In this document: positions 1,659 through 26,986 of the stretch, piece by piece | Layout: every line of letters starts with the position of its first letter | Numbering within the stretch: position 1 is the stretch's first letter | Source of the DNA: a virus | Lineage: Duplodnaviria; Heunggongvirae; Uroviricota; Caudoviricetes | Reading direction: 5' to 3' (one strand) | IMG/VR virus record: IMGVR_UViG_2939147180_000004 | Length of the DNA: 28,621 bases | Translations under genes and position numbers: made by a program | Notes under the pieces: generated by a model | The model's input: the letters and a program-made list of their open reading frames with translations, nothing else | The model's database searches: none | Told to the model about the DNA's origin: nothing

Positions 1659-4130
1659 TTAAGAATCAGCCTGACTCGGGATCAGTTTTTGCCAGATAAC
1701 TGAAACGTATTTTGCCTGGTAACGGGCGTCATCAAGTGCATTATGGCGCTCACCTTCGAATGGAATAGCCGTTCTGGCATCGAAGTCTATGGCTTTCCCC
1801 AGCTCAACGATTGTGCGTACATCGCGATCGTTGTAGTAACGCCACGGGCAGGGGATCCCCTGCCGTTCGTATGAACGGCGCAAAATCGTGTTGTCGAAGT
1901 TGGCTCCATTTCCCCAAACCTGAACAAAAAATTCACCGGAGTTTTCGTCGATAAATTCCCGCAATTGTAACAGTGCATCATCTAACGGGATTTCATCGGT
2001 CATAATGGCAGATTGCGCTTCGCGTGATTGCTTAAGCCACCATTTAATGGTGTTCCGATCAATGACTCCGCCAGCAGTTTCCAGATCGATAGTCTTACTA
2101 AATTCCGGTCCCATATCTCCGGTTTGCGGATCGAAAAATATTGCACCTATTGAGATGATCGGGGCATCAGGATTTTTTCCCATGGTTTCAAGGTCGATCA
2201 TTAGATGGTCACACGTCCTGCTGGTGGATGTGATTTCGTGATGACCGTTCACCTTAATTGAGTGATCTGCCGTCTCGCCAGTTTCATTATCGCTATTGTG
2301 ATGCTGATTGCCGCCAGTGTTCTCCTTGTGTGGATGTTCAGCGCCTTCCATTTCCTCCGGATCATCTTCCTGAACTTCAACCTGATATTCTTCATCGAAT
2401 GTTTCTTGATATGTTGCGTCGCCCATCACCGCGCCACAATCAGGGCAGTTGCCGCCGCCGGTCTGACCGCAGGCGGTGCAGACTTTTTCCACTTCCTGTT
2501 GCGCCACTGGTTCAGGCTGTTTCGTTTCTGGCTCGTTTTGTAACGCATTTGTGCTGTTTTGTTCCGCTTTTTGGTAGTTCCGTTCCGATTCATGCTGGTT
2601 CTGGTTCACAGAATCGCGGGTCTGGATCCCCTTAACCCATTTCGGATCATTCGGGTCACTAATCCCTTCAACAAATTCACCACGTGATGCAGCAAGCAAC
2701 TTATCGGCGTCAGGCTGGCTGATATTGGCTGCCTGCATAATTTTGTTTACTTCGTCAGCGGTAACTTTTATCGGCTCTGGTTGTTCTGAATCTTCAGCGG
2801 TATCTACATTTTGCGGTAAGCCCGTGTATGTGCCATTTTTTCGGGCAAAATATTCTTCTTTTGTGATTTCAGTGGCGCCAGCAGCCAGTGCCTTATCCAG
2901 ACCAGAAAGTTTGTTTGCGCGACCGTATTTTTCTCCGTCCTTATCTGCGAAGAGGAAATAGAACGGCCCCTCACGCTCTACAGATGGTTCAGCTTCCGGC
3001 GCGGTTTCATTTTTTGGGATATCAGATACCTCAGTTTCCACTGCATCAGTTTGTGTTTCTGATGACTGGAGAACATCAACAGTGCCCAGGTCTGTTTCTT
3101 CATTCTCAAACACGCCCTTTGTCGTCAGGTATTCGCAGATATATTTGTTCAGTGCTATGGGATCTTTGTGAATGTCGATCGGACGCTCACGGACAAGGCC
3201 AAAAATAGTCTGGCGGTCGTAGCGAAGGGCATCAGGCTGTTTGCGCATTGATGCCGAGATACGCTTCCAGTCTTCGCGGTCGTTGTCGATAACTTCTTTT
3301 TTTGCCCAGCGATGGATGCTGCCGTCAATGTTTCCGGCATCCACATCACCAGGCCAGAGAGCGTAGGCCAGTTCGTCATCCAGTGTTTTCCATGTCTGCT
3401 TGTATTCGCGATGAATGGCAGCAATGACCGGGCTGATTTTTCCTGTTGAATTTTCAGTGTACTGTTGATTGGCTCTGGCGCGGGCGAGATCAACAACAGA
3501 CGTGTATTTTCCGGTTTCCTTGCGTTCACCTTCGCGACGTTTTTTCCAGATGCGCATCTCTGCCTGAATTTCGGGCCATTTAGCACCAGGAATACATTTA
3601 TGCTTAACCCACCCAATGGCGTGCAACTTAAGCTCCGGATACATGGCGTTAACTTCTGGCATTTTCATCAACGCTTCAACGATATGTCCGTCGAATGTTG
3701 CCATGTCTTCCTGCAACAATTCCTGTGCGCTAATAACCATATCAACGGTGATGTTTTCACATGTGTCGAACTTAACCATGACAGCGTTCTGTACTTCAGG
3801 GGCCAGCTTGTCAAAAGTGACGTTCATCGGATCGGATTCAGTCTCAACCGGGACAAAAGAAGCAGACTCCTCATCCCAGCGGTTTTCCTGCATATATTCA
3901 GCATCCCATGAATCGAGGGCAGGGCGGGGTATGCCAGGTTTATCCTCGCAGACAATAAATTTATAAGCGCAGTCCTGAGCAGCCGGATAATGTTCCAGGA
4001 ACTGCCAGTGAAATTTTGCTCGAGCACGGCGTTCGTCGCCAGCTTCAATGGCTGTGGCTACAGCCACAGCGCCTTCTTCCCTTGTTGCCAGTTCGTCAGG
4101 AATAGCGGCGCAAATAAAGACTTTACTCAT
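1659..4130 (-). CDS. Phage exonuclease, 823 aa: RecE-like acidic/zinc-ribbon linker with a C-terminal DnaQ-like DEDDh 3'-5' exonuclease domain
   Basis: C-terminal motifs LMIDLETMG (Exo I), VWGNGANFD (Exo II) and HNALDDARY (Exo III, DEDDh). Central segment KLLAASRGEFVEGISDPNDPKWVKG...CTACGQTGGGNCPDCGAV...EDDPEEMEG matches my recollection of the Rac RecE linker. RBS GAGG upstream of the ATG at 4130. Confidence 0.75.
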   Translation of the reverse strand: MSKVFICAAIPDELATREEGAVAVATAIEAGDERRARAKFHWQFLEHYPAAQDCAYKFIVCEDKPGIPRPALDSWDAEYMQENRWDEESASFVPVETESDPMNVTFDKLAPEVQNAVMVKFDTCENITVDMVISAQELLQEDMATFDGHIVEALMKMPEVNAMYPELKLHAIGWVKHKCIPGAKWPEIQAEMRIWKKRREGERKETGKYTSVVDLARARANQQYTENSTGKISPVIAAIHREYKQTWKTLDDELAYALWPGDVDAGNIDGSIHRWAKKEVIDNDREDWKRISASMRKQPDALRYDRQTIFGLVRERPIDIHKDPIALNKYICEYLTTKGVFENEETDLGTVDVLQSSETQTDAVETEVSDIPKNETAPEAEPSVEREGPFYFLFADKDGEKYGRANKLSGLDKALAAGATEITKEEYFARKNGTYTGLPQNVDTAEDSEQPEPIKVTADEVNKIMQAANISQPDADKLLAASRGEFVEGISDPNDPKWVKGIQTRDSVNQNQHESERNYQKAEQNSTNALQNEPETKQPEPVAQQEVEKVCTACGQTGGGNCPDCGAVMGDATYQETFDEEYQVEVQEDDPEEMEGAEHPHKENTGGNQHHNSDNETGETADHSIKVNGHHEITSTSRTCDHLMIDLETMGKNPDAPIISIGAIFFDPQTGDMGPEFSKTIDLETAGGVIDRNTIKWWLKQSREAQSAIMTDEIPLDDALLQLREFIDENSGEFFVQVWGNGANFDNTILRRSYERQGIPCPWRYYNDRDVRTIVELGKAIDFDARTAIPFEGERHNALDDARYQAKYVSVIWQKLIPSQADS

Positions 4131-4600: not shown

Positions 4601-5102
4601 TATCGCGTCCTCAACAATGAATTTTGTGATGCAGTGCCTGGTGCCTCCAGGTGACGTTAACCAGTTAACAATTAACGCCGGATACAGAGAATCCACCCAT
4701 AACACTGTTTTTGGTTTTAACTGTTCCGCGTGCGCTTAGCCGCATTCACCGCATCACAAAATTCACTTTAAAAACGGCGGCAGAGCAGTCACGGAGTAAA
4801 ACTGATACCGCCAAACGTCACCAGAAAATTGATAACAGAGGGCGTTGCAGCGGGGTTGTCACTTAAGCGTATGGTCAACCTGACAACTCGGTGTCCTCAA
4901 CGGGGAAGGAATAACCCCGCCATACTTACCGCCGCGCCATTTCGCGGGTTGCCACAACCGGAAGCGCACGGTCGAATTAAATTTAACGACACCGTACAGT
5001 GAGACGAACTTCGCCGTGCGCTTTCGTGTTGTGTGCCTGCTTTTAACCACGTCAGGCGAGGTGGTATCCTTCTTATTCCGAATAACCAAGAAGGAAATCT
5101 AT

Positions 5103-5849: not shown

Positions 5850-6371
5850 ATGAAAATCACTCCTGAACAGGCTCGTGAGGCTCTGGATGCCTGGATATGT
5901 CGACCAGGAATGACACAGGAGCAGGCGACGATATTAATCACTGAAGCATTCTGGGCTTTGAAAGAGCGCCCGAACATCGATGTTCAGCGTGTCACAGATG
6001 AAGGTGGCGCGGTTGATCAGCGAGCGCTTGGCGTTAATCGAGTGAAGATATTCGAACGCTGGAAGGCTATCGACACTAGGGATAAGCGTGAAAAGTTCAC
6101 GGCGCTAGTGCCTGCAATTATGGAGGCTATCCGGATTAATGATTTCAGGTTGTATCGTGAAATTAGTGACGGAAAAAGCATCACGTACATGATCGCCGGG
6201 TTAAACAAAGAATATGGCGATGTGGTGGAGTCCGGACTGCTTTTTGCTGATCCTGCCGTAGTGGATCGTGAAACTGACGAACTTATAGAAAAAGCAATTG
6301 CTTTCAAACTTGCGTATCGACAGCAATACCAACAAAAAGCTGGATGGAATTATGAGCCTTCTTTTTGCTGA
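5850..6371 (+). CDS. Hypothetical protein (173 aa), first gene of the rightward operon (cII position)
   Basis: ORF with ATG at 5850 directly upstream of, and overlapping by 20 nt, the replication initiator gene. No confident family assignment. Confidence 0.5.
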   Translation: MKITPEQAREALDAWICRPGMTQEQATILITEAFWALKERPNIDVQRVTDEGGAVDQRALGVNRVKIFERWKAIDTRDKREKFTALVPAIMEAIRINDFRLYREISDGKSITYMIAGLNKEYGDVVESGLLFADPAVVDRETDELIEKAIAFKLAYRQQYQQKAGWNYEPSFC

Positions 6372-7317
6372 ACGCCCACTGGTTATAAACACACAGCTTG
6401 CGATGAAGATTGGCTTAAATGAAGCCATTGTGTTGCAGCAGTTGCATTACTGGTTGAGAGATACCAATTCCGGCATGGAATGTGATGGTGTTCGCTGGAT
6501 TTACAACACAACGGAACAATGGCTGGAACAGTTCCCATTCTGGTCAGAGTCAACGTTAAAGCGCGCGTTTGCAAGTCTGAAAACGCTGGGGCTTTTGCGT
6601 TGTGAAAAGCTCAATAAATCAAAGCGCGATATGACCAATTTCTACACGATCAACTATGGGAACGAGCTTTTAGATGGTGGCAAATTGAACGAATCCATCG
6701 GTTCAAAATGCGCCGCTCCATCAGGTCAAAATGACACGATGGAAGAGGTCAAAATGAAACGCTCCATTGGTTCAAAACGACCCAATGTCATCGGGTCAAA
6801 ATGGCCTGATGATCTTACAGAGAATACAACAGAGATTACTACAGAGAATAAAAACACTTTTCGTCCGGAAGCTTCGCAACCGGACCCGCAGACCGCTGAA
6901 CAGGATTTTTTAATCCGGAACCCCGACGCGGTTGTGTTTAGTGCGAAAAAACGCCAGTGGGGTAGCAGGGAGGATTTGGCGTGTGCGCAGTGGATTTGGG
7001 GGCGGATCGTGAACCTTTACGAACAGGCTGCCAGCGACGATGGAGAGATCATGCGACCAAAAGAGCCTAACTGGACAGCCTGGGCCAATGACGTGCGCAC
7101 AATGCGGATGCTGGATGGCAGAAGCCACAGACAAATTTGCGAAATGTTTGGTCGGGTACAGCGAGATCCATTCTGGGTAAAAAACATCATGAGCCCGTCA
7201 AAACTCCGCGAAAAATGGGACGAACTGGTCATCCGCTTGGGACGTTCACCTGTACAGCGTTGTGTGAATCATATTTCTGAACCGGATACAGAAATTCCGC
7301 CTGGTTTCAGGGGATAA
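6352..7317 (+). CDS. Phage replication initiator (lambda O-like N-terminal winged-helix domain, DnaT-like C-terminus ...EPDTEIPPGFRG)
   Basis: N-terminus MSLLFAERPLVINTQLAMKIGLNEAIVLQQLHYWL is typical of replisome-organiser N domains; C-terminal PPGFRG tail resembles the primosomal DnaT C-terminus; iterons lie inside the gene. Start at the internal ATG 6352 is preferred over ORF start 6298. Confidence 0.8.
   Translation: MSLLFAERPLVINTQLAMKIGLNEAIVLQQLHYWLRDTNSGMECDGVRWIYNTTEQWLEQFPFWSESTLKRAFASLKTLGLLRCEKLNKSKRDMTNFYTINYGNELLDGGKLNESIGSKCAAPSGQNDTMEEVKMKRSIGSKRPNVIGSKWPDDLTENTTEITTENKNTFRPEASQPDPQTAEQDFLIRNPDAVVFSAKKRQWGSREDLACAQWIWGRIVNLYEQAASDDGEIMRPKEPNWTAWANDVRTMRMLDGRSHRQICEMFGRVQRDPFWVKNIMSPSKLREKWDELVIRLGRSPVQRCVNHISEPDTEIPPGFRG
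6697..6850. repeat. Replication-origin-like iteron array (5 x GGT(T)CAAAA(T/C)G at ~23-25 bp spacing) followed by an A+T-rich 12-bp tandem repeat ACAGAGA(A/T)TA x3
   Basis: Iterons start at 6700, 6724, 6747, 6769 and 6794; ACAGAGAATA / ACAGAGATTA / ACAGAGAATA at 6817, 6829 and 6841. Location inside the initiator gene mirrors lambda ori inside O. Confidence 0.6.
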
Positions 7318-7644
7318 GTGTTGATTTCAGGTCATGAGGTAATTTTAAGGAGGACTTGTGGCAAAAGTTTTTACACAGGAAGAGCGGGAAAAAATTAAAG
7401 AGCAGGTGGTCGAACTTGTGCGCCAGAGCGGTCGCGAGACATTACGACAGTTGGAAGCTAAAACAGGTGCGACAAGATATCTGATGAGCATTCTTGCCAG
7501 AGAGCTGGTTGCCAGTGGTTATGTATACAACTCCGGCTACGGGTTATTCCCGTCTGAACAGGCACGAAAGGACTGGCAAAATGCCCGCAAAAAACTCTCT
7601 AGGGCGAAGGTGAAGAAACCCGCTGTGGTTGATTGGATTTGCCC

Positions 7645-8550
7645 CTATATTTCCAGACATCTGTTATCACTTAACCCATTACAAGCCCGCTGCCGCAGAT
7701 ATTCCCGTGGCGAGCGATAACCCAGCGCACTATGCGGATGCCATTCGTTATAATGCTCGAACGCCTCTGCAAGGTTCTTTGCTGCCGTTAACCCGTCTGG
7801 TTTGGGCATGATACTGATGTAGTCACGCTTTATCGTTTTCACGAAGCTCTCTGCTATTCCGTTACTCTCCGGACTCCGCACCGCCGTGTTCTTCGGTTCA
7901 AGTCCCAACATCCGGGCGAACTGGCGTGTTTCATTAGCCCGGTAGCATGAACCATTATCCGTCAGCCACTCCACTGGAGACGACGGAAGATCGTTGCCGA
8001 AGCGGCGTTCCACCGCTCCCAGCATGACGTCCTGTACTGTTTCACTGTTGAAGCCGCCGGTAGTGACCGCCCAGTGCAGTGCCTCACGATCACAGCAGTC
8101 CAGCGCGAACGTGACACGCAGTCTCTCTCCGTTATCACAGCAGAACTCGAACCCGTCAGAGCACCATCGCTGATTGCTTTCTTTCACGGCCACTCTGCCT
8201 GTATGTGCCCGTTTCGATGGCGGTACAGCAGGTTTTCGCTCAAGCAACAGCGCATTCTGGCGCATGATCCGGTAAACACGTTTGGCATTGATCGCAGGCA
8301 TACCATCAAGTTCTGCCTGTCTGCGAAGCAGCGCCCATACCCGACGATAACCATACGTGGGCAGCTCTCCGATAACATGGTGTATACGGAGAAGCACATC
8401 CGTATCATCAGTGTGACGACTGCGGCGGCCATCCATCCAGTCATCGGTTCGTCTGAGAATGACGTGCAACTGCGCACGCGACACCCGGAGACAACGGCTG
8501 ACTAAGCTTACTCCCCATCCCCGGGCAATAAGGGCGCGTGCGCTATCCAC
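7645..8550 (-). CDS. insD: IS2 transposase OrfB (InsD, 301 aa, DDE integrase-like)
   Basis: ORF 7645..8550 overlapping insC in the -1 frame; recognised as the IS2 InsD sequence. Confidence 0.9.
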
Positions 8551-8873
8551 TTTTTTGCCCGTCCATATTCAACGGCTTCTTTGAGGAGTTCATTTTCCAT
8601 CGTTTTCTTGCCGAGCAGGCGCTGGAGTTCTTTAATCTGCTTCATGGCGGCAGCAAGTTCAGAGGCAGGAACAACCTGTTCTCCGGCGGCGACAGCAGTA
8701 AGACTTCCTTCCTGGTATTGCTTACGCCAGAGAAATAACTGGCTGGCTGCTACACCATGTTGCCGGGCAACGAGGGAGACCGTCATCCCCGGTTCAAAGC
8801 TCTGCTGAACAATTGCGATCTTTTCCTGTGTGGTACGCCGTCTGCGTTTCTCCGGCCCTAAGACATCAATCAT
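8508..8873 (-). CDS. insC: IS2 transposase OrfA (InsC, 121 aa)
   Basis: [40 protein letters not shown]... (HTH); internal ATG of ORF 8508..8918; ends near the A6G slippery site used for the InsCD frameshift. Confidence 0.9.
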
Positions 8874-9273
8874 CTGTTCTCCAATGACTAGTCTAAAAAC
8901 TAGTATTAAGACTATCACTTATTTAAGTGATATTGGTTGTCTGGAGATTCAGGGGGCCAGTCTATTGATCCGGACCTTATCTGGTCACTACCTGATGGAG
9001 AAATACGTCGCTACGACAGTCGTCTAAACATAATCTGTCGCGAGTGCCGGAAGAGCGAAGTTATGCAGCGCATACTGGCATTTTATCAGTGAAATTTTCG
9101 TTATTTATAGACGTAACTAGATTAAAGAGCATTAGTTCAGATGTGAATTGACATTTTCACGGCACAGGATTGAGCTAGCGTGGTTGTCTGCTTTGCGTCA
9201 AAAGCAGATATTACCAGATTTAGACATCTATTCCCGATAGCCCTGCTCTGATGCCACACTCTGTGCTATTTTC

Positions 9274-11410: not shown

Positions 11411-11935
11411 TTATTGTTTAACCCATAATAGTTCATTGACATTGAATCCCAACTTTTGAGCGGTACGCACATAGTCTGCTTTTACATTATCTGGAATAGT
11501 TTGGGTCCTTGCCAGAATCCATAGGTATTCTCTGTTCGGACCACTGACAAGAGCATACTTATACTCATCATCCAGTTTGATTACATTATAGCCACCATAG
11601 AAGGGGCCAAAAAACGAAACTTTCAACGCTGCAGTTTTAGTATCTCCAGTAAAGTATGCTTTACCTTCGCTCTCGCTCCATTTGTTTTTCGTTGGATCGT
11701 ATCCACGGTTAAGTACGCGAATCCCTCCGTCGTTCCGTTTTTCATAAGTAGCGCTGACCTGTTCCAGACCACGTTCGAACCAGTTCTCGAGGCGAGCTAT
11801 TTCATACCATTTTCCGAGGTAGCGGTTGGCGTCAAAATTTGTAATCGGCTGCACACCTTTAGGTGGTGTCGGGGCCTTACATGCTATAAGAGTGAAAGAG
11901 AGTGCAATGCCAGTCAACACAGGCCATAACTTCAT
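11411..11935 (-). CDS. Outer-membrane lipocalin lipoprotein (Blc-like), 174 aa
   Basis: Lipoprotein signal with lipobox LIAC; ...FDANRYLGKWYEIARLENWFERGLEQVSATY...KVSFFGPFYGGYNVI...YLWILART... closely parallels E. coli Blc. AGGA RBS 8 nt upstream. Confidence 0.8.
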   Translation of the reverse strand: MKLWPVLTGIALSFTLIACKAPTPPKGVQPITNFDANRYLGKWYEIARLENWFERGLEQVSATYEKRNDGGIRVLNRGYDPTKNKWSESEGKAYFTGDTKTAALKVSFFGPFYGGYNVIKLDDEYKYALVSGPNREYLWILARTQTIPDNVKADYVRTAQKLGFNVNELLWVKQ

Positions 11936-12127
11936 AATAAATCCTGTACTTTTGATAGTTGAGAGTAAGTATGAAAGATAGATGAGTACGACCGATCACT
12001 TAAAGAACTTTCCTACTATATTAGGAATAGTCAATAACAGAAAAATTGTCAGTGATGAAGCCAGAAAGGCAATTTAGTCCGTGCACTACAAAGTTTATGT
12101 GTTAATGAATTAGTCAAGGGGGAGGAA

Positions 12128-13087
12128 ATGATAAAAAAACCTGTGATTGGGATCAGCGGTTGTTTGGGCGGTTCTGCTGTTCGTTTTGATGGTGGTCACA
12201 AAAGAGATGACTTTTTAATGGACAAATTAGTGGAATGGGTAACATTCAGACCAGTATGTCCGGAAATGGCTATAGGGCTGCCAGTTCCGCGTCCTGCTCT
12301 ACGACTTGTGCGCTCGAAGCAAGGAAATATACGGATGTGTTTCAGCCACGACCAGAATGAGGATGTGACAGAGAGAATGACAGAGTTTAGTCGTTCTTAT
12401 ATGGACAAATTAAAGGATGTATCGGGGTTTGTGGTTTGTGCTAAATCTCCCAGCTGTGGCATGGAGCGCGTGCGTGTCTATGATGAAAATGGTAATCGAG
12501 GTCGTAAAGATGGAGTGGGACTATTTACGAGCACTTTGATGGAAAAGTTTTCCTGGCTACCGGTTGAAGAGGATGGGCGATTACATGATCCAGTGCTTCG
12601 TGAGAATTTTATTGAAAGAGTTTTTGCTTTGCATGAGCTCAATCACCTTTACAAGGAGAAATTATCAAGAAGAGAGTTATTAGCTTTTCATAGTCGTTAT
12701 AAGCTTCAGTTGTTGGCGCATAGCCAGGCAGGCTATAAAGATATGGGACCATTTGTGGCTGCAATACACGAGTGGGCGGACCTTGAATCATACTTTGAGG
12801 TGTATCGTGATAATCTGATGGCGATTCTCAGAAAACCAGCATCACGTAAAAATCACACGAATGTGCTGATGCATATACAGGGGTATTTTAGTAATTACTT
12901 AAGTACACGCCAGCGTAAAGAGTTGAGCGAGGTTATACTTAACTATCGCTTTGGCACATTGCCTCTTCTTGCGCCGTTGACTCTGCTGAAGCATTATCTG
13001 GGTGAGTATCCTAATGATTACTTGCTTACACAGAATTACTTCGATCCCTATCCGGAAGAACTGGCTCTAAGACTGATGGTGAATTAA
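12128..13087 (+). CDS. DUF523 (TudS-like Fe-S desulfidase fold) - DUF1722 fusion protein, 319 aa
   Basis: N-terminus VIGISGCLGGSAVRFDGGHKRD...CPEMAIGLPVPRP...KSPSCG fits DUF523; the C-terminal half resembles YbgA-type DUF1722. Strong RBS GGGGGAGG upstream. Confidence 0.65.
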   Translation: MIKKPVIGISGCLGGSAVRFDGGHKRDDFLMDKLVEWVTFRPVCPEMAIGLPVPRPALRLVRSKQGNIRMCFSHDQNEDVTERMTEFSRSYMDKLKDVSGFVVCAKSPSCGMERVRVYDENGNRGRKDGVGLFTSTLMEKFSWLPVEEDGRLHDPVLRENFIERVFALHELNHLYKEKLSRRELLAFHSRYKLQLLAHSQAGYKDMGPFVAAIHEWADLESYFEVYRDNLMAILRKPASRKNHTNVLMHIQGYFSNYLSTRQRKELSEVILNYRFGTLPLLAPLTLLKHYLGEYPNDYLLTQNYFDPYPEELALRLMVN

Positions 13088-13493
13088 CTGTATGCGATAT
13101 CATCTGAAAGTGATGAGTTCCTGTATGCAGGATATTTACAATCGTAAAAACTACGCTATGATGCTCATAGTGTCAGTTTTTATAAAAATCCTGTTCACGC
13201 TAAAGAAAACATTGAGATGCAATTTAATGTTGGTAAACATACCAGCCCCAAAAGATTTTATTCAATCTGTTTTTATATGAAGATATTTCAAGTGAATATA
13301 AAGAGCATATAATATTATTATTGCACGCAGCTATTATAATATAACAGATTAGTTTAATGATTTGTTTTTTGTGAGTTAAACACATGGTTTTATAGTTGTG
13401 ATGCAATGAGATTTTCCTTATTGTTGAACTGGCGAATATTGATTTTCCACCTATACTTACCTGGTGTAACCCCAATGATATCAGGTGGATAAT

Positions 13494-14207
13494 ATGCCAT
13501 ACATATGTTCTATCATTTTGGTGTTGAACTCGTTTGGTGTCCGAATTGGTAAAGAAGATATTTTGTTTAAAAAAGGAAATGCTGTCCTCATTGAATACAA
13601 TTTAAAAGATCTTTTTTCGTCAAATACAGATCATCTAATGATCGTAGATATTGAGGAGAAAACAGTTAATGATTTCTTTAAAAACTACACACTCTCACCT
13701 TTTTCTGTAAGAAGGTTTTATCCGTCATACTTGATAGTAGAATGTGAAGATTTTTCATTGTTAAGGAACTTGGTTGCATGCTTGAATTGTGATAGCAAAA
13801 CCGTGGATGTAGTTAGAAATCAAATATCACTTGCATGTCTTGCTGTCTTATCTTCAGAGAAAATAGTGCAAAGTTTTTTGTTCGGAAGTCTTAATAGCTT
13901 AGGTTGTAAAGTTAAGGCTATTATTCACTCGGATATCTCAGCGTCATGGAGACTTTGTGATATATCTTCAAGATTATATATGAGCGAGAGTTTGTTAAAA
14001 AGAAAATTAAAAGACGAAGGATTATCGTTTAGTAAATTAATTCTTGAAGAACGAATGATGATGGCGCAAAGATTATTGATCTACAGTAACCATACTGTCG
14101 GCAAGGTGGCGGGAATATGCGGGTATGACAATGCATCATATTTTGTAAGTGTTTTTAGAGGATATTTTGGTGTGCCTCCGCACCAATATTTATCAAGATT
14201 TTCTTAG
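13494..14207 (+). CDS. AraC/XylS-family transcriptional regulator (AppY/GadX-like), 237 aa
   Basis: C-terminal AraC-type HTH (...VGKVAGICGYDNASYFVSVFRGYFGVPPHQY); N-terminus resembles AppY; AGGTGG RBS 5 nt upstream of ATG 13494; sits in an A+T-rich segment. Confidence 0.8.
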   Translation: MPYICSIILVLNSFGVRIGKEDILFKKGNAVLIEYNLKDLFSSNTDHLMIVDIEEKTVNDFFKNYTLSPFSVRRFYPSYLIVECEDFSLLRNLVACLNCDSKTVDVVRNQISLACLAVLSSEKIVQSFLFGSLNSLGCKVKAIIHSDISASWRLCDISSRLYMSESLLKRKLKDEGLSFSKLILEERMMMAQRLLIYSNHTVGKVAGICGYDNASYFVSVFRGYFGVPPHQYLSRFS

Positions 14208-14275
14208 AAGATATGATGTGATGGCATTTTATAAAGTTATTTTTTGAAGTGTAAGATTATACGATATTTTTAGCT

Positions 14276-14306
14276 ACGCCAGAATAATTGCTGGCGTTTT
14301 TCTTTT
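14276..14306 (+). terminator. Rho-independent terminator after the AraC-family gene
   Basis: ACGCCAG / CTGGCGT stem (14276..14282 and 14291..14297) followed by TTTTCTTTTT. Confidence 0.55.
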
Positions 14307-14397
14307 TGAATAGATGTTCGGGCCTTACGCTAATGTAACTTCTTTCCTTCTTCGAACCAAACCGTGTACACCATCCGTTATCTGCGGAGGTGAGGCT

Positions 14398-14613
14398 ATG
14401 AAATCCATGGATAAGTTAACAACGGGCATCGCCTACAGCACCTCTGCAGGCAGTGCTGGCTACTGGTTTTTACAGTTGCTCGATAAAGTCACGCCCTCAC
14501 AGTGGGCGGCAATAGGTGTATTGGGTAGTCTGGTATTTGGCATGCTGACGTATCTGACAAACCTTTATTTCAAGATTAAAGAAGACAGGCGTAAGGTTGC
14601 GAGAAGAGAGTAA
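14398..14613 (+). CDS. S: Class II holin, phage 21 S-like pinholin (71 aa) with dual-start MKSM motif
   Basis: [66 protein letters not shown]; GGAGGTGAGG RBS; internal start of ORF 14314..14613. Confidence 0.85.
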
Positions 14614-14617
14614 TCCA

Positions 14618-15169
14618 ATGACTCAAGACTATGAACTGGTTGTGAAAGGAGTTCGCAATTTTGAGAATAAAGTGGCGGTAACTGTAGCCTTACGGGACAA
14701 AAAACACTTTGACGGTGAAATTTTTGACCTGGACATCTCGCTGGACCGTGTTGAAGGTGCCGCGCTGGAGTTTTATGAGGCAGCAGCCAGAAGGAGCATC
14801 AGACAGGTCTTCCTGGATGTTGCTGCCGGGTTATGTGAAGGGGATGAGCAGTCGCCGGAAAAGCGCCCCATAATTTTAGAGGCGCAGAATGTGTGGATAA
14901 CCTACAAAGGAAAGCTACCGGGAAGAATTACTGGTTCTCTGAAGACGCCACCGACGGCATTGCGGTCAGAAAAAGATGATATTGAATCGCCCATTGAAAA
15001 ACTGGAGGGCAGCGTCGCTGATCTGAATAAAAAATTGTCGGTGCTGATTCCTTCTGAAGATGAAAAAAAACGCCGCGATGAGCAGTTTGCGGCGTTTTAC
15101 GATTATTGCATTGAAGTTACTCGCAGGAATTTTGTGAAGATTTTTGAGGAGGGTAAATCTCTTCAGTAA
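14618..15169 (+). CDS. DUF1327-family protein (YdfR-like), 183 aa, inserted between holin and endolysin
   Basis: MTQDYELVVKGVRNFENKVAVTVAL... matches my recollection of the Qin YdfR N-terminus; ATG 14618 just after the holin stop, with purine-rich RBS. Confidence 0.6.
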   Translation: MTQDYELVVKGVRNFENKVAVTVALRDKKHFDGEIFDLDISLDRVEGAALEFYEAAARRSIRQVFLDVAAGLCEGDEQSPEKRPIILEAQNVWITYKGKLPGRITGSLKTPPTALRSEKDDIESPIEKLEGSVADLNKKLSVLIPSEDEKKRRDEQFAAFYDYCIEVTRRNFVKIFEEGKSLQ

Positions 15170-15377
15170 GCTTATTGGCGGACGCTGCAATTAATTCAGG
15201 AAGGTCCGCAAGGTCATCTGTCAGTGGATATGATGAAAAATCGGCGGCAGTTCTGTTAAGAAGCGCTTTAACTAATTCCTTTTCCTTCTCCGGCAACAAG
15301 TTGATTAGAGCTACGACTGCTTGCCTGAGTGCGATTAAATCAGCAAAAGTTTGTTTAGGTAGATTTGTGTAATCCAT
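15117..15377 (-). CDS. Hypothetical protein (86 aa) encoded antisense within the lysis cassette
   Basis: ATG at 15377 (minus) with GAGG RBS 5-6 nt upstream; fills the otherwise empty 320-bp gap between the DUF1327 gene and the endolysin; 3' end overlaps the DUF1327 gene by 53 bp. Confidence 0.45.
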   Translation of the reverse strand: MDYTNLPKQTFADLIALRQAVVALINLLPEKEKELVKALLNRTAADFSSYPLTDDLADLPELIAASANKLTEEIYPPQKSSQNSCE

Positions 15378-15490
15378 AGTCGCCTCTGTGTTTATCAGAT
15401 TGACATCCTCCTCCCGCCAGTGCCCATCACTGGTGAGGTAAGATTTAACATATCCGGGGATTTGAAGCCGATAAATCCTGATAAATATCC

Positions 15491-16518
<1,028 letters not shown>

Positions 16519-16881
16519 ATTAATATTAAATCGGATTATTTTTAGCGCTGAATGTGAAATTTAAATAAAAAGGACTCTTCCATGAGTCAAAATCCTTGAA
16601 ATCTTAAGGGTAAGATAAAAGGTCATTAGACAGAATGACACGTTTTATTAATAAATAAAGCTATTGTTTCATTCGTGTGTTTTTCTTTACAAAAGTAATC
16701 CTTGCTATGGTTGGTTAATCATGCGTTAATGGTGTTCTGGTTTGTTACAAAATTATCTGAAGCAGTCATTGTTATAATTTTATTATTTGTACCTCTTGAG
16801 ATTTCCTTGTTGGTTTTTCTCTCTGATATTTTTTTTCGGACCATTCTGCCCAAGGGCTAACTTCTTCAAAAGGTAATAATG

Positions 16882-17094
16882 ATGTCTAACACAATGACTG
16901 GTTTAGTGAAATGGTTTAACCCTGAAAAAGGTTTTGGTTTCATCACGCCGAAAGATGGTAGCAAAGATGTGTTTGTCCATTTCTCAGCTATTCAGAGCAA
17001 CGATTTCAAAACGTTAACTGAGAATCAGGAAGTCGAATTTGGTATTGAGAACGGACCTAAAGGCCCCGCGGCTGTTCATGTTGTGGCACTTTGA
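16882..17094 (+). CDS. cspI: Cold-shock protein, CspA family (CspI/CspB-like), 70 aa
   Basis: [70 protein letters not shown]; preceded by a long A+T-rich leader typical of cold-shock genes. Confidence 0.85.
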
Positions 17095-17293
17095 GGTAGA
17101 AAATATTACAAACCATATTCACTTTAGATGCCCGTGTTGCCATGGTTCTCAGTATAGAACATCATCTTTTGATGTTTCTGACAGGAATCCTTTCGGGGCA
17201 AAATGTATCTTTTGTAAATCAATGATGATTACATTTGATAATATTTCACAATACTTAAATGTTAGCCGTCTATCGTTAGATTTAAGAAAGTGA
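17078..17293 (+). CDS. Small Cys-rich zinc-ribbon protein (YnfN-like), start uncertain
   Basis: ...[35 protein letters not shown]...; the ORF-track start at 17039 is TTG; the first ATG (17078) overlaps the csp stop by 17 nt and has a weak RBS. Confidence 0.4.
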
Positions 17294-22660: not shown

Positions 22661-25498
22661 ATGGCAGTACGGATTTCAGGTGTACTGAAAGATGGCGCAG
22701 GTAAGCCGATACAAAACTGCACCATTCAGCTAAAGGCCAGGCGCAACAGCACCACGGTGGTGGTGAACACAGTGGCCTCAGAAAACCCGGATGAAGCCGG
22801 GCGTTATAGCATGGACGTTGAGTACGGTCAGTACAGCGTTATTCTGTTGGTGGAAGGCTTCCCGCCATCGCATGCCGGGACCATCACCGTGTATGAAGAC
22901 TCACAACCGGGTACGCTGAATGATTTTCTCGGTGCCATGACGGAGGATGATGTCCGTCCGGAGGCACTGCGCCGCTTTGAACTGATGGTGGAAGAGGTGG
23001 CGCGTAACGCGTCCGCAGTGGCACAGAACACGGCAGCCGCGAAGAAGTCAGCCAGTGATGCCCGCACATCAGCCCGTGAGGCGGCAACCCATGCGACTGA
23101 TGCTGCGGACTCCGCACGCGCAGCCAGCACGTCAGCCGGACAGGCCGCGTCGTCGGCTCAGTCAGCGTCTTCCAGCGCAGGAACGGCATCAACAAAGGCT
23201 ACTGAAGCATCAAAAAGTGCTGCCGCTGCAGAGTCTTCAAAAAGCGCGGCAGCCACCAGTGCCGGTGCAGCGAAAACGTCAGAAACGAATGCCGCAGCAT
23301 CACAAAAATCTGCGGCCACTTCTGCATCCACCGCGACCACGAAAGCGTCAGAAGCTGCCACCTCAGCCCGGGATGCGTCGGCTTCAAAAGTGGCGGCAAA
23401 ATCATCAGAAACGAGCGCAGCCTCGAGCGCCGGCAGTGCAGCTTCCTCGGCAACGGCGGCAGGAAATTCCGCGAAGGCCGCAAAAACGTCTGAGATGAAT
23501 GCGGATAACAGCGCACAGGCGGCAGCAGACTCACAAACTGCATCGGCAAATTCCGCGACAGCAGCCAAAAAATCAGAAACCAACGCGAAAAATAGTGAGT
23601 CAGCAGCAAAGGTCAGCGAAACCAACGCTAAAGCGTCAGAGAACAAGGCGAAAGAATATCTCGACAAGGTCGGGGGACTCGTCAGCCCGATGACGCAATA
23701 CGATTGGCCCGTTGTTACTGGTAATGAGTCTTTTTACATAAAGATCGCGAAACTTTCCGATCCCGGAAGCAACAATTGCCATGTAACGCTAATGGTTACT
23801 AACGGCGGTGACTACGGCTCCCCTTACGGAAACATTGACTTTATCGAGATCTCGGCGCGCGGTCTGCCTTCTTCGCTTACTGCTGATAATGTATCTCGTT
23901 ACCTGAGTATACGCCGTTTAGGGCCAACCGGGCTAATCAATAGCATGCAAATGCGTTACGGCCTGGTTAAAGATGATGGCTTTATTGAGGTTTGGGCCTT
24001 CCAGCGTGCATTTATCAACGGCGCAAAGGTTGCGGTACTGGCGCAGACGGCACGCACGGAATTATACATTCCAGACGGATTTGTTAAGCAAACCGCCGCG
24101 CCTTCTGGATATGTTGAAAGCCCCGTTGTAAGGATTTACGACCAGTTAAACAAGCCGACTAAAGCAGATTTGGGTCTTTCTAATGCTATGCTTACAGGCG
24201 CTTTCGGTCTTGGCGGTAGCGGGATATCAACAAACGGCAAGATGAGCGATGTAGAGATCTTAAAAGCTCTGCGTGACAAAGGTGGTCATTTCTGGCGCGG
24301 TGATAAGCCGACCGGAAGCACGGCGACCATTTATAGCCACGGTTCTGGTATATTCTCGCGGTGCGGCGATACGTGGTCAGCGATCAATATCGACTACTCA
24401 ACCGCGAAGATTAAGATCTATGCCGGCAACGATGCCCGGCTTAACAACGGGACTTTTAGCGTCAATGAGCTATACGGCTCGGCAAACAAGCCGTCGAAAT
24501 CGGATGTTGGACTTGGCAACGTAACGAACGATGCGCAGGTAAAAAAAACCGGCGATACAATGACCTGTGACTTGACAATCAAAAAAGGTACACCGTCAGT
24601 CTTCCTGCGGGCAGACAGTGGAGTCACCGCTTTGCGGTTTTATACTGGCGATAACACAGAGCGCGGCATAATCTATGCTGGTCCTAACACTGATTCGCTT
24701 GGCGAAGTTCGCATCAGGGCAAAGACAGCAGGGGGGACATCAGGAGGGGATCTTGTTGTTCGTCACGACGGGAGGGTTGAAGTCCGTGATCTCACAGTAG
24801 CGTATAAAATTAAAAGCAGAACGATTGAGATTGCAAATACCGACACTGACTCATCGGCAACTACGCTCAGCATCTATGGAGTACAGCACACGCCGTTGGT
24901 TTTAACGCGTTCTGGTTCTTCTGAAAATGTGTCCATTGGGTTTAAGTTAGACAACATGAACCCAAAGTATCTTGGAATTGATACTAATGGGGATCTGGCT
25001 TTTGGTGAGAGTCCTGATCAGAAACAAAACAGCAAATTGATCACGCAAGCGAAACTCGACAAGGGATTAACGATTGGTGGTCAACTGGCTTTCAAAGGTA
25101 CGACAGCGTTTTCAGCCGTTGCTACGTTCAGTGCCGGGATAGCAGGAGCCATCGAGCCGGAAAACATTGACGGCCAGACGGTTAATCTTAACAACCTGAC
25201 CATCATCAAGTCAGATGCCGGGGCAGTTAAATACTATATTTGTCCATCCTCTGCAGGTGGTGCAAATATTACCAATAAGCCTGACGGCATAGCCGGTAAC
25301 TTTTTGCTCCGTGTAGAGTCGACTCGTAAGGTTAGGGATTCAGATTATGCGAACATGCAAACGCTGATTAACAGCGACACAAAACGTATATACGTTCGCT
25401 TTGTTGTTAATGGAAACTGGACAGCGTGGAGTCAGGTTGTTGTTTCCGGATGGAATCAGGATATAACTGTCAGGTCGTTAACTAGACTGGCCCCCTGA
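22661..25498 (+). pseudogene. stf: Side tail fibre protein (lambda Stf-like), N-terminal about 940 codons; reading frame ends inside an IS2 fragment
   Basis: N-terminus MAVRISGVLKDGAGKPIQNCTIQLKARRNSTTVVVNT... and the Ala/Ser/Thr-rich repeat region match my recollection of lambda Stf. The last 5 codons and the stop (25483..25498) are IS2-derived. Confidence 0.85.
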
Positions 25499-25613
25499 AT
25501 CTCCAGACAACCAATATCACTTAAATAAGTGATAGTCTTAATACTAGTTTTTAGACTAGTCATTGGAGAACAGATGATTGATGTCTTAGGGCCGGAGAAA
25601 CGCAGACGGCGTA
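25483..25613 (+). mobile_element. Solo 131-bp fragment of the IS2 left end (IRL through the insC start region)
   Basis: 131 bp identical to positions 1-131 of the full IS2 copy at 25656..25786; the match ends abruptly (GTA|AGTAAGA versus GTA|CCACACA). Confidence 0.85.
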
Positions 25614-25746
25614 AGTAAGATGCTGTCGCTAAAAAATTTCTTTAGCGGAGCTGAGTAGACTGGCCCCCTGAATCTCCAGACAACCAATATCACTTAAATA
25701 AGTGATAGTCTTAATACTAGTTTTTAGACTAGTCATTGGAGAACAG

Positions 25747-26112
25747 ATGATTGATGTCTTAGGGCCGGAGAAACGCAGACGGCGTACCACACAGGAAAAG
25801 ATCGCAATTGTTCAGCAGAGCTTTGAACCGGGGATGACGGTCTCCCTCGTTGCCCGGCAACATGGTGTAGCAGCCAGCCAGTTATTTCTCTGGCGTAAGC
25901 AATACCAGGAAGGAAGTCTTACTGCTGTCGCCGCCGGAGAACAGGTTGTTCCTGCCTCTGAACTTGCTGCCGCCATGAAGCAGATTAAAGAACTCCAGCG
26001 CCTGCTCGGCAAGAAAACGATGGAAAATGAACTCCTCAAAGAAGCCGTTGAATATGGACGGGCAAAAAAGTGGATAGCGCACGCGCCCTTATTGCCCGGG
26101 GATGGGGAGTAA
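25747..26112 (+). CDS. insC: IS2 transposase OrfA (InsC, 121 aa)
   Basis: Identical protein to copy 1; the A6G slippery heptamer AAAAAAG (26064..26070) lies in the insC/insD overlap. Confidence 0.9.
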
Positions 26113-26975
26113 GCTTAGTCAGCCGTTGTCTCCGGGTGTCGCGTGCGCAGTTGCACGTCATTCTCAGACGAACCGATGACTGGATGGATGGCCGCCGCAG
26201 TCGTCACACTGATGATACGGATGTGCTTCTCCGTATACACCATGTTATCGGAGAGCTGCCCACGTATGGTTATCGTCGGGTATGGGCGCTGCTTCGCAGA
26301 CAGGCAGAACTTGATGGTATGCCTGCGATCAATGCCAAACGTGTTTACCGGATCATGCGCCAGAATGCGCTGTTGCTTGAGCGAAAACCTGCTGTACCGC
26401 CATCGAAACGGGCACATACAGGCAGAGTGGCCGTGAAAGAAAGCAATCAGCGATGGTGCTCTGACGGGTTCGAGTTCTGCTGTGATAACGGAGAGAGACT
26501 GCGTGTCACGTTCGCGCTGGACTGCTGTGATCGTGAGGCACTGCACTGGGCGGTCACTACCGGCGGCTTCAACAGTGAAACAGTACAGGACGTCATGCTG
26601 GGAGCGGTGGAACGCCGCTTCGGCAACGATCTTCCGTCGTCTCCAGTGGAGTGGCTGACGGATAATGGTTCATGCTACCGGGCTAATGAAACACGCCAGT
26701 TCGCCCGGATGTTGGGACTTGAACCGAAGAACACGGCGGTGCGGAGTCCGGAGAGTAACGGAATAGCAGAGAGCTTCGTGAAAACGATAAAGCGTGACTA
26801 CATCAGTATCATGCCCAAACCAGACGGGTTAACGGCAGCAAAGAACCTTGCAGAGGCGTTCGAGCATTATAACGAATGGCATCCGCATAGTGCGCTGGGT
26901 TATCGCTCGCCACGGGAATATCTGCGGCAGCGGGCTTGTAATGGGTTAAGTGATAACAGATGTCTGGAAATATAG
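26070..26975 (+). CDS. insD: IS2 transposase OrfB (InsD, 301 aa)
   Basis: Identical protein to copy 1; -1 frame relative to insC. Confidence 0.9.
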
Positions 26976-26986
26976 GGGCAAATCCA

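What the first reader, a model, noticed from the sequence alone, without database searches (positions are those of the whole stretch)
14618..15377. Convergent antisense 86-aa gene inside the lysis cassette, overlapping a DUF1327 gene
Canonical pinholin/SAR-endolysin cassettes are contiguous S-R-Rz. Here the holin is followed by a 183-aa DUF1327 gene and then a 320-bp stretch with no plus-strand ORF. That stretch is filled by a minus-strand 86-aa ORF (15117..15377) with its own GAGG RBS, whose 3' end overlaps the DUF1327 3' end by 53 bp. An oppositely transcribed gene embedded in a late lysis operon implies transcriptional interference or antisense control of lysis timing, or a lysogen-expressed moron.
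Basis: partly seen in the sequence, partly recalled or inferred. Interest (0 to 1): 0.5.

Follow-up and report, generated by a model that had tools for sequence, protein, structure and literature searches.

The report
Small accessory gene inside prophage lysis cassette
The backwards-facing 86-codon gene between the holin and endolysin genes of this E. coli Qin-type prophage is real, but it is a self-contained accessory gene (a "moron") sitting in a swap-prone slot, not evidently a lysis-timing device.

Summary
The minus-strand ORF at 15117..15377 has an AGAGG ribosome-binding site 5 nt before its ATG. It overlaps the 183-aa DUF1327 ORF by 53 bp.

- **Source:** the window is an E. coli Qin-type prophage, 100% identical to E. 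coli HS.
- **Real gene:** NCBI already annotates ORF86 as a hypothetical protein (phrog_2572). Homologues with 41-49% identity occur in Salmonella prophages and metagenomes, with dN/dS of 0.1-0.4 and no stops. The predicted fold is an acidic three-helix protein with no known relative.
- **Own transcription unit:** it has a conserved upstream block (TTTATC-N17-TATGTT) and a hairpin plus U8 terminator 18 nt after its stop. That hairpin lies inside the opposite-strand codons KKRRDEQFAAFY.
- **Dispensable and mobile:** K-12 Qin and many phages join ydfR directly to the endolysin gene. In Salmonella the module sits after Rz.
- **Swap slot:** in E. coli phages the same upstream block precedes at least seven unrelated small ORFs, all divergent from the endolysin gene.

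The moron reading is therefore supported. Antisense control of lysis timing is not supported. Expression and function remain untested. I rate it a new member of a known kind, of modest interest.

The parts
14398..14613 (+). Class II (phage 21 S-type) holin, essQ allele. Context gene.
   Evidence: PF04971, E 3.8e-34. RefSeq essQ in E. coli HS at the same place.
14618..14953 (+). YdfR/DUF1327 part of the 183-aa ORF (codons 1-112).
   Evidence: PF07041 on residues 1-112, E 2.6e-42. 90% DNA identity to the short S-YdfR-R phage 689R5 up to 14953. K-12 YdfR binds the RNase E N-terminal domain, and RNA co-purified with it (PMC13232886).
14954..15463 (.). The 510-bp inserted or replaced module. It holds the C-terminal extension of the 183-aa ORF, the terminator, ORF86, its leader and most of the promoter-like block.
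   Evidence: Homology to short YdfR-R phages breaks at 14953 and resumes at 15464. K-12 Qin has ydfR overlapping rrrQ with nothing between them.
14954..15169 (+). C-terminal extension of the late-strand ORF (codons 113-183, motif KKRRDEQFAAFYDYC..RRNF). Probably a real small helical domain fused to YdfR, but only weakly constrained.
   Evidence: Homologous to a stand-alone 73-aa ORF that follows Rz in Salmonella prophages (E 3e-5; hhalign E 4e-5). pN/pS is about 0.4-0.5 in Salmonella and about 0.4-1 among E. coli variants. Matches phrog_2091, phrog_1085 and phrog_36381.
15063..15098 (-). Intrinsic terminator of ORF86. On the minus strand it reads AAAA-CGCCGC (15098..15089), a 12-nt loop, GCGGCG (15076..15071), then U8 (15070..15063). 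It starts 18 nt after the stop codon and is embedded in the plus-strand codons KKRRDEQFAAFY.
   Evidence: Seen in the sequence and folded. Present after the stop in E. coli, Salmonella and metagenome homologues. L256 has a G-C to A-U compensatory change while the opposite-strand peptide changes. Intact in 30 of 33 distinct ORF86 units. The tool scan missed it because its loop limit is 8 nt.
15117..15377 (-). ORF86: an 86-aa acidic (pI 4.6) cytoplasmic protein, predicted three-helix bundle. It is the cargo gene.
   Evidence: phrog_2572, positions 1-86 of 86, E 4.4e-53. RefSeq WP_001557934.1. Distant homologues P0019, P0020, P0026 and P0027. dN/dS 0.12-0.37, and the sense frame is the only frame without stops. 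In-frame indels. AlphaFold2 pLDDT 74 and 72, helices 8-26, 30-48 and 56-74. GC1/2/3 = 0.53/0.36/0.36.
15383..15387 (-). Shine-Dalgarno AGAGG, 5 nt before the ATG.
   Evidence: Seen in the sequence. GAGG is kept in 32 of 33 distinct units.
15417..15433 (.). Hairpin CCAGTG-N5-CACTGG in the predicted 5' leader. It marks the right-hand junction shared by all alternative minus-strand cargos.
   Evidence: There is no covariation, and the pairing is not kept in Salmonella, so its role is unknown.
15447..15488 (-). Conserved promoter-like block. It holds a direct repeat ATTTATC x2 (15486..15470), a -35-like TTTATC (15475..15470), a 17-nt spacer and a -10-like TATGTT (15452..15447). It overlaps the untranslated region just upstream of the endolysin ATG.
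   Evidence: The block is invariant across E. coli, Salmonella and metagenome modules while the spacer varies. 32 of 33 ORF86 units carry it. 84 of 111 IMG/VR loci with the block have TATGTT or TATTGT at N17. It occurs once in the window, against 0.01 expected. It matches only 7 of 12 consensus positions, so it falls below the scan threshold. Function is inferred.
15491..16024 (+). SAR-type endolysin rrrQ. Context gene, divergent from ORF86.
   Evidence: PF00959. RefSeq rrrQ.

Best explanation
ORF86 is the cargo of a compact, self-contained accessory transcription unit (a moron) set backwards in the late operon of a Qin-type lambdoid prophage.

**Shown.**
- It is a real protein-coding gene under purifying selection. 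It encodes an 86-aa acidic helical protein with no signal peptide or membrane segment.
- It has its own RBS and its own hairpin plus U8 terminator.
- It is preceded by a sequence block conserved between E. coli and Salmonella.
- The whole 510-bp module is absent from closely related cassettes. In Salmonella it sits at a different late-operon position, after Rz.
- In E. coli phages the same upstream block, always divergent from the endolysin gene, is followed by at least seven unrelated small ORFs, each with its own terminator-like hairpin.
- The 53-bp 3' overlap exists because the late-strand ORF reads through the terminator and into the tail of ORF86.

**Inferred.**
- The conserved TTTATC-N17-TATGTT block is a weak or activator-dependent promoter. 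It would start a transcript of about 380 nt near 15440 that ends at 15063-15070.
- This transcript is made independently of late transcription, most likely in the lysogen.
- During lytic growth, Q-modified polymerase reads through the hairpin, so S, R and Rz expression is essentially unaffected.
- The protein acts in the cytoplasm by binding another protein. The cargo turnover at this slot suggests a role in phage-phage or phage-host conflict, such as exclusion or counter-defence, rather than in lysis itself.
For: **Coding.**
- phrog_2572 full-length match.
- Homologues at 41-49% identity with dN/dS 0.12-0.37. The sense frame is the best of six and has no stops.
- In-frame indels.
- GC1>GC2 codon pattern.
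- Consistent three-helix models.

**Unit anatomy.**
- RBS, seen in the sequence and conserved.
- Terminator with U8, conserved in all lineages with one compensatory pair.
- Upstream block conserved across genera with a variable spacer.

**Modularity.**
- Homology breakpoints at 14953 and 15464.
- K-12 Qin has ydfR and rrrQ overlapping.
- In Salmonella the module lies between Rz and the terminase small subunit.
- Several classes of the interval before R, with different minus-strand cargos abutting the same flank.
- At least seven cargo families after the same block, each with its own hairpin plus T-run.

**Compatibility with lytic growth.** Four kinds of plaque-forming phage carry it: PhiR63_1, 2H10, the PhiR12 series and PhiR5_1.

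**Precedents.**
- Lambda bor is on the opposite strand next to Rz.
- Genes antisense to prophage lytic genes are described as characteristic accessory loci transcribed from their own promoters (PMC7067206).
Against: - No transcript, transcription start or protein evidence is available.
- The proposed promoter matches only 7 of 12 consensus positions and was not found by the scan. It also overlaps the region just upstream of the endolysin start, so part of its conservation in E. coli could serve R.
- Within E. coli the ORF is too uniform for a selection test: 14-17 differences, pN/pS 0.33-0.54, indistinguishable from the antisense frame.
- ORF86 relatives are always paired with the KRRDE-type late-strand ORF, in three lineages. 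This could mean a two-gene functional unit rather than a simple one-gene moron.
- The function is a guess. There are no hits in Pfam, NCBIfam, PADLOC, PDB or BFVD.
Confidence: 0.7

Rival explanations
1. Two-gene convergent module. ORF86 and the KRRDE-type late-strand protein work as a pair. The late-strand partner is the 73-aa ORF in Salmonella and is fused to YdfR here. One partner is made in the lysogen and the other from the late operon. They are coupled by protein-protein binding, or by their complementary 3' ends and shared terminator. An example would be an inhibitor and target pair, or an exclusion or abortive-infection pair.
For: - In every lineage with an ORF86 relative, the convergent partner and a 53-59-bp 3' overlap are present: E. 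coli, L256, and Salmonella L253 and L257-L262.
- The partner is homologous outside the overlap.
- The mobile unit's ends coincide with the two genes plus the upstream block.
- The late-strand frame stays open for about 70 codons in several independent lineages.
Against: - The extension domain occurs without ORF86: 41 loci have no minus-strand gene and others have different cargos.
- Other cargos pair with unrelated tails or with plain YdfR.
- The most conserved part of the partner, KRRDE..AA, is exactly the terminator hairpin. It changes at the peptide level while the pairing is kept.
- The partner is weakly constrained, with pN/pS up to about 1.
- Simple linkage explains the co-occurrence.
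Confidence: 0.15
2. Antisense or transcriptional-interference control of lysis. The minus-strand transcript or its promoter modulates late mRNA between S and R. It could do so by polymerase collision, by occlusion of the R translation start region, or by duplex formation followed by RNase III cleavage. The result would tune the holin-to-endolysin ratio or lysis timing. The RNA could also exclude superinfecting relatives, as BTP1 STnc6030 does.
For: - The predicted transcript is fully complementary to about 380 nt of the late mRNA between ydfR and R.
- The promoter-like block overlaps the 20 nt upstream of the R start codon.
- A prophage antisense RNA inside late genes is known to act as an exclusion factor (PMC7067206).
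Against: - The terminator confines the transcript to the module. It does not reach S or the R coding region.
- Phages with near-identical S and R lack the module.
- In Salmonella the module lies after Rz.
- The slot accepts unrelated cargos.
- The ORF is under protein-level constraint, which a pure RNA function would not require.
Confidence: 0.1
3. ORF86 is not a gene. It is a chance or shadow ORF in spacer DNA that gene callers propagate.
For: - It is small.
- Within-E. coli comparisons cannot separate it from the antisense frame.
- A few copies have an ACG start or a nonsense codon.
- It has no known domain.
Against: - Homologues at 41-49% identity keep the frame open, with the lowest pN and highest pS of all six frames.
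- The RBS and terminator are conserved.
- In-frame indels.
- Coding-like GC pattern.
- Reproducible helical model.
Confidence: 0.04

Closest known systems
Lambda bor, a lysogen-expressed moron next to the lysis genes
   Same: A small accessory gene on the strand opposite the late operon, convergent with S-R-Rz. It is dispensable for lytic growth. Its expression in lysogens from its own promoter is from my own knowledge (Barondess and Beckwith). The Salmonella ORF86 homologue occupies the same position, after Rz and before the packaging genes.
   Different: Bor is an outer-membrane lipoprotein with a signal peptide. ORF86 is a cytoplasmic acidic helical protein with no sequence or fold relative. 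In this window the gene is inside the cassette, between S/ydfR and R, and it overlaps a late-strand ORF.
Morons in the sense of Juhala, Hendrix and colleagues (HK97/HK022): promoter, gene and terminator inserted between neighbouring phage genes
   Same: Presence or absence between genes that are adjacent in relatives, its own terminator, a putative own promoter and a lower G+C content.
   Different: The promoter is only inferred. One promoter-like block serves many alternative cargos at a fixed site. The terminator lies inside an opposite-strand coding sequence.
Accessory loci antisense to prophage lytic genes in Salmonella: ST64B STMMW_20121 and the BTP1 STnc6030 antisense RNA (PMC7067206)
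   Same: The transcription unit is antisense to late genes. These units are expressed from their own promoters during lysogeny, and STnc6030 gives superinfection exclusion.
   Different: There is no sequence relationship. STnc6030 is non-coding, whereas ORF86 shows protein-level constraint. Expression of ORF86 is untested.
[quoted passage not shown]
   Same: A fixed locus with conserved flanks and rapidly exchanged cargo in temperate E. coli phages.
   Different: Those hotspots carry recognisable multi-gene defence systems. Here the cargos are single orphan proteins of 86-233 aa with no PADLOC or Pfam match. A defence role is speculation.

Membership tests
Moron (independent accessory transcription unit in a phage operon) | Present or absent between genes that are adjacent in related phages | tested here: met
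   K-12 Qin has ydfR overlapping rrrQ. Phage 689R5 is S-YdfR-R. Homology breaks at 14953 and 15464.
Moron (independent accessory transcription unit in a phage operon) | Own factor-independent terminator downstream of the gene | tested here: met
   A hairpin with six G-C pairs plus U8, 18 nt after the stop. Kept in 30 of 33 units. Kept in Salmonella and metagenome homologues, with a compensatory change in L256. Termination itself has not been measured.
Moron (independent accessory transcription unit in a phage operon) | Own promoter upstream of the gene | tested here: inconclusive
   A conserved TTTATC-N17-TATGTT/TATTGT block is present. It matches only 7 of 12 consensus positions and the consensus scan found nothing. 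There are no transcription start data.
Moron (independent accessory transcription unit in a phage operon) | Base composition differs from the surrounding phage genes | tested here: met
   ORF86 is 42% G+C, with GC3 of 0.36. GC3 is 0.53 for R and 0.55 for S.
Moron (independent accessory transcription unit in a phage operon) | Expressed in the lysogen and not needed for lytic growth | not testable with these tools
   Only indirect evidence: viable phages exist with the module and without it.
PHROG 2572 (phage protein family of unknown function) | Full-length match to the family profile | tested here: met
   Residues 1-86 match profile positions 1-86 of 86, E 4.4e-53.
Pfam DUF1823 (PF08853), the label used in GenBank records of the PhiR12 and PhiR5 phages | Score at or above the Pfam gathering threshold of 25 bits | tested here: not met
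   12.9 and 15.3 bits over about 30-39 residues. The Salmonella homologue has no match.
Cis-antisense regulator of lysis genes | The antisense transcript overlaps the holin or endolysin coding region or start region, and the arrangement is conserved relative to those genes | tested here: not met
   The terminator ends the unit inside the DUF1327 extension. The module is absent from most relatives. In Salmonella it is relocated after Rz. Effects at the RNA level were not measured.
Phage 21-type pinholin and SAR-endolysin cassette (the context) | S21-family holin, a lysozyme with an N-terminal hydrophobic SAR segment, and Rz with embedded Rz1 | tested here: met
   PF04971, PF00959 and PF10721. 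The endolysin N-terminus is [24 protein letters not shown]. A lipobox ORF is embedded in Rz. SAR behaviour is inferred from sequence only.
Known anti-phage defence systems (PADLOC-DB) | Match to any defence-system protein model | tested here: not met
   No hits for ORF86, the 183-aa protein or three alternative cargos.

The most novel reading that the evidence does not exclude
The 75 bp upstream of the SAR-endolysin gene in phage 21-type lysis cassettes is a dedicated cargo-swapping slot. One conserved promoter and leader block drives at least seven unrelated, orphan, mostly acidic proteins of about 90 aa, of which ORF86 is one. These would form an unrecognised reservoir of lysogen-expressed phage-conflict effectors (exclusion or counter-defence). 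ORF86 and its convergent KRRDE partner, which share a terminator embedded in coding sequence, would form a functional two-gene pair.
Probability: 0.2. Interest if true: 0.6.

Novelty: new member of a known kind. Interest (0 to 1): 0.33.

Why it matters
If the inference holds, about 5% of complete E. coli genomes carry ORF86. About 22% carry some version of the flank just upstream of the endolysin gene that includes this block. Together they would express a set of uncharacterised small proteins from inside a prophage lysis cassette.

This would add a well-defined, easily testable cargo slot to the list of lambdoid moron sites. It would also give candidate exclusion or counter-defence proteins.

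It is also a clear example of a terminator hairpin that masquerades as a conserved peptide motif (KRRDE..AA) in the opposite-strand ORF. That is a caution for domain annotation.

It does not change the understanding of lysis control.

Tried and rejected
2. **Selection test within E. coli.** There are too few differences, and the antisense frame shares third positions with ORF86. Distant homologues solved this.
3. **Consensus promoter and terminator scan.** It found neither element of the unit. The terminator has a 12-nt loop and the promoter scores 7 of 12.
4. **Leader hairpin 15417..15433 as a terminator or conserved RNA structure.** There is no T-run and no covariation, the pairing is not kept in Salmonella, and the fold z-score is about -1.
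5. **Are the alternative cargos diverged relatives of ORF86?** hhalign probabilities were at most 3%. BLASTP found nothing.
6. **Two long repeat proteins in the exhaustive search (P0021, P0024).** I judged these compositional or repeat artefacts.
7. **Literature.** Searches for DUF1327, ydfR, protein accessions and lysis-cassette morons found nothing on ORF86. The one useful result was the YdfR-RNase E interaction.
8. **The 'DUF1823' label in GenBank.** It is sub-threshold.

Full report
**Observation.**
The window is an E. coli Qin-type cryptic prophage. Region 14300-16100 is 100% identical to E. coli HS and many other strains.
- S21-type holin at 14398..14613.
- A 183-aa ORF at 14618..15169, whose first 112 residues are DUF1327/YdfR.
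- A minus-strand 86-aa ORF at 15117..15377, with AGAGG 5 nt before its ATG.
- A 53-bp 3' overlap between the two ORFs.
- A SAR-type endolysin at 15491..16024, followed by Rz with embedded Rz1.

The 'empty' plus strand does hold a mechanical 65-aa TTG ORF (15175..15372). It has no RBS, a predicted pI of 10.2 and an atypical GC-by-position profile. It lies in the antisense frame whose third positions coincide with those of ORF86.

RefSeq already calls ORF86 a hypothetical protein. It treats the 183-aa ORF as a YdfR pseudogene lacking its C-terminus. A DUF1327 gene between S and R is normal for this lineage: K-12 Qin is essQ-ydfR-rrrQ, with ydfR overlapping rrrQ.

**Is ORF86 a gene?**
It matches phrog_2572 end to end (E 4e-53), but no Pfam, NCBIfam or PADLOC model. 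The 'DUF1823' label in some GenBank phage records rests on 13-15 bits against a 25-bit cutoff.

Distribution:
- The full module is in 293 of 5426 complete E. coli genomes.
- It is in 8 of 50,697 phage records, all plaque-forming E. coli phages.
- It is in 98 IMG/VR stretches.
- Among GTDB species representatives it occurs only in E. coli.

Within E. coli there are two types, about 99% and about 88-90% identical. That is too close for a selection test: 14-17 differences, pN/pS 0.33-0.54, and no separation from the antisense frame. In-frame indels do occur.

An exhaustive HMMER search found relatives of 89-93 aa at 41-49% identity. Against these, the ORF86 frame has the highest pS and lowest pN of all six frames. 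dN/dS is 0.28-0.37, and 0.12 between two distant homologues over the non-overlapping 55 codons. It is also the only frame without stops.

AlphaFold2 gives a reproducible three-helix protein with pLDDT of 74 and 72. The protein is acidic (pI 4.6) and has no signal peptide or membrane segment. Fold searches gave only generic helical matches. I conclude it is a real orphan protein gene.

**Anatomy of the unit.**
Compared with short S-YdfR-R phages, the window carries a 510-bp replacement at 14954..15463.

*Terminator.* Eighteen nucleotides after the ORF86 stop, the minus strand reads AAAACGCCGC, a 12-nt loop, GCGGCG, then U8 (15098..15063). This is a classical intrinsic terminator. The scan missed it because of its loop limit. 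The same DNA encodes KKRRDEQFAAFY in the plus-strand ORF.

The hairpin follows the stop codon in every homologue. In L256 a G-C pair has become A-U, while the opposite-strand peptide changes from KRRDE..AA to RHHE..VA. So the conserved 'motif' is at least partly an RNA or DNA structure.

*Upstream block.* The minus strand carries an invariant block, ATG(G/T)ATATTTATCAGG(A/C)TTTATC, then a variable 17-nt spacer, then TATGTT or TATTGT. The block is shared by the E. coli, Salmonella and metagenome modules. It is present in 32 of 33 distinct ORF86 units and is unique in the window.

It is promoter-like (-35 TTTATC, -10 TATGTT) but matches only 7 of 12 consensus positions. It includes a tandem ATTTATC repeat with 10-bp periodicity, which hints at an activator site. 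This step is inference.

**Context elsewhere.**
In Salmonella enterica prophages and related metagenome contigs the homologue lies after Rz and before the terminase small subunit, again opposite to the late genes. There it is convergent with a 73-aa late-strand ORF, with a 59-bp overlap. That ORF is homologous to residues 149-183 of the window's 183-aa protein.

So the 183-aa protein is YdfR fused to a small KRRDE-type protein. The unit that moves is [KRRDE ORF, then ORF86 facing it, then the upstream block]. The late-strand partner is only weakly constrained, with pN/pS of 0.4 to about 1.

**A cargo slot.**
I collected 247 loci that carry the extension domain (including repeat fetches of the same contigs). 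The interval before R falls into these classes:

| Interval before R | Loci |
|---|---|
| ORF86 | 175 |
| Full 296-aa plus-strand protein, no minus-strand gene | 41 |
| Minus-strand 104-122-aa ORF (phrog_1853) | 20 |
| Minus-strand 233-aa ORF | 5 |
| Minus-strand 116-aa ORF | 3 |
| IS insertion | 2 |

All minus-strand cargos abut the same flank of about 75 bp, which begins at the hairpin CCAGTG-N5-CACTGG.

I then scanned IMG/VR for the upstream block itself and analysed 111 loci. Of these, 84 have TATGTT or TATTGT at the right spacing. They are followed by at least seven unrelated small ORFs:
- a 90-aa family, the most common in that sample (34 loci);
- ORF86 (21 loci);
- families of 104, 91, 233, 98 and 116 aa.

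Each of the seven representative loci examined has its own terminator-like hairpin and is divergent from the endolysin gene. None has a Pfam match. hhalign finds no significant relationship among them.

**Interpretation.**
The anatomy and distribution fit a moron. Lambda bor is opposite-strand and next to Rz. Salmonella accessory loci antisense to lytic genes are also known (PMC7067206). These are the closest precedents.

Antisense control of lysis timing is not supported:
- The terminator confines the transcript to the module.
- The module is missing from most cassettes with near-identical S and R.
- Its position relative to S, R and Rz is not conserved.
- The slot takes unrelated cargos.

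A residual possibility remains. The predicted transcript is complementary to the ydfR-R intercistronic part of the late mRNA, and the block overlaps the region just upstream of the R start. A two-gene functional pair is also possible.

Expression, timing and protein function are untested. The suggestion of a conflict-related binding protein is inference from the cargo turnover.

**Verdict.**
The moron reading is supported and the lysis-timing reading is not. This is a new member of a known kind, already annotated as hypothetical, set in a previously undescribed but conceptually ordinary cargo slot. Interest is modest.

Noticed in passing
window 15063-15098 (plus-strand codons KKRRDEQFAAFY): The most conserved 'peptide motif' of the DUF1327 extension and of the Salmonella 73-aa ORF is encoded by the ORF86 terminator hairpin. 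In L256 the pairing is kept by a compensatory change while the peptide changes. An RNA element is mimicking a protein motif.
   Followed up: yes
window 15470-15486, minus strand: A tandem direct repeat ATTTATC x2 with 10-bp periodicity overlaps the -35-like hexamer. It is invariant from E. coli to Salmonella. It could be a binding site for a response-regulator-type activator. No factor was identified.
   Followed up: partly
window 7634-8964 and 25656-26986; also 25483-25613: Two 1331-bp IS2-type copies, 100% identical and in inverted orientation, bracket 16.7 kb that includes the whole Q-to-lysis-to-tail-fibre region. An extra 131-bp IS end fragment is duplicated at 25483-25613. This could act as a composite transposon or an inversion substrate.
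   Followed up: no
window 11411-14297: The Q-to-S interval, where stx sits in Stx phages, carries a lipocalin gene (minus strand), a YbgA-family gene and an AraC-type regulator. A terminator-like hairpin lies at 14276-14297. K-12 Qin has cspB and cspF in this position instead.
   Followed up: partly
window 4775-4826 (minus strand) and 16724-17121 (plus strand): Rfam finds DicF sRNA and a cspA-type thermoregulator leader in front of the cspI allele (16879..17094).
   Followed up: no
L085 (Stx1a phage Stx1_499, LC567825.1) 2541-3242 minus versus 2001-2792 plus: An unannotated 233-aa minus-strand ORF (about 210 aa from its first ATG) overlaps the last 250 nt or so of the annotated 263-aa plus-strand protein. 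One of the two annotations is probably wrong. The minus-strand ORF sits in the same cargo slot as ORF86.
   Followed up: partly
IMG/VR loci L263 and others (90-aa cargo MDNNTISLQELLDS...): This is the commonest cargo behind the shared upstream block in the pattern scan. It aligns end to end with the ORF86 family in hhalign, but not significantly (E 0.014, probability 3%). It is either a very diverged relative or a coincidence.
   Followed up: partly
L257-L260 (Salmonella enterica) 6224-6445, minus strand: The 73-aa KRRDE-type ORF after Rz is intact in all of these assemblies. It was called in only some of them, so it is an under-annotated small gene.
   Followed up: partly
IMG/VR loci L066-L072 and L078: Seven ORF86 copies have ACG in place of the ATG start, and one has a nonsense codon at Q19. 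This is occasional decay, as expected for a dispensable prophage gene.
   Followed up: no
window 14618-14953 (YdfR domain): K-12 YdfR was recently reported to bind the catalytic N-terminal half of RNase E, and RNA co-purified with it (PMC13232886). The role of a DUF1327 protein inside lysis cassettes is still unknown.
   Followed up: no
window 15510-15525, minus strand: A terminator-like hairpin plus T-run lies inside the first codons of the endolysin gene, upstream of the promoter-like block. It could insulate the moron from antisense read-through. This is a consensus match only.
   Followed up: no
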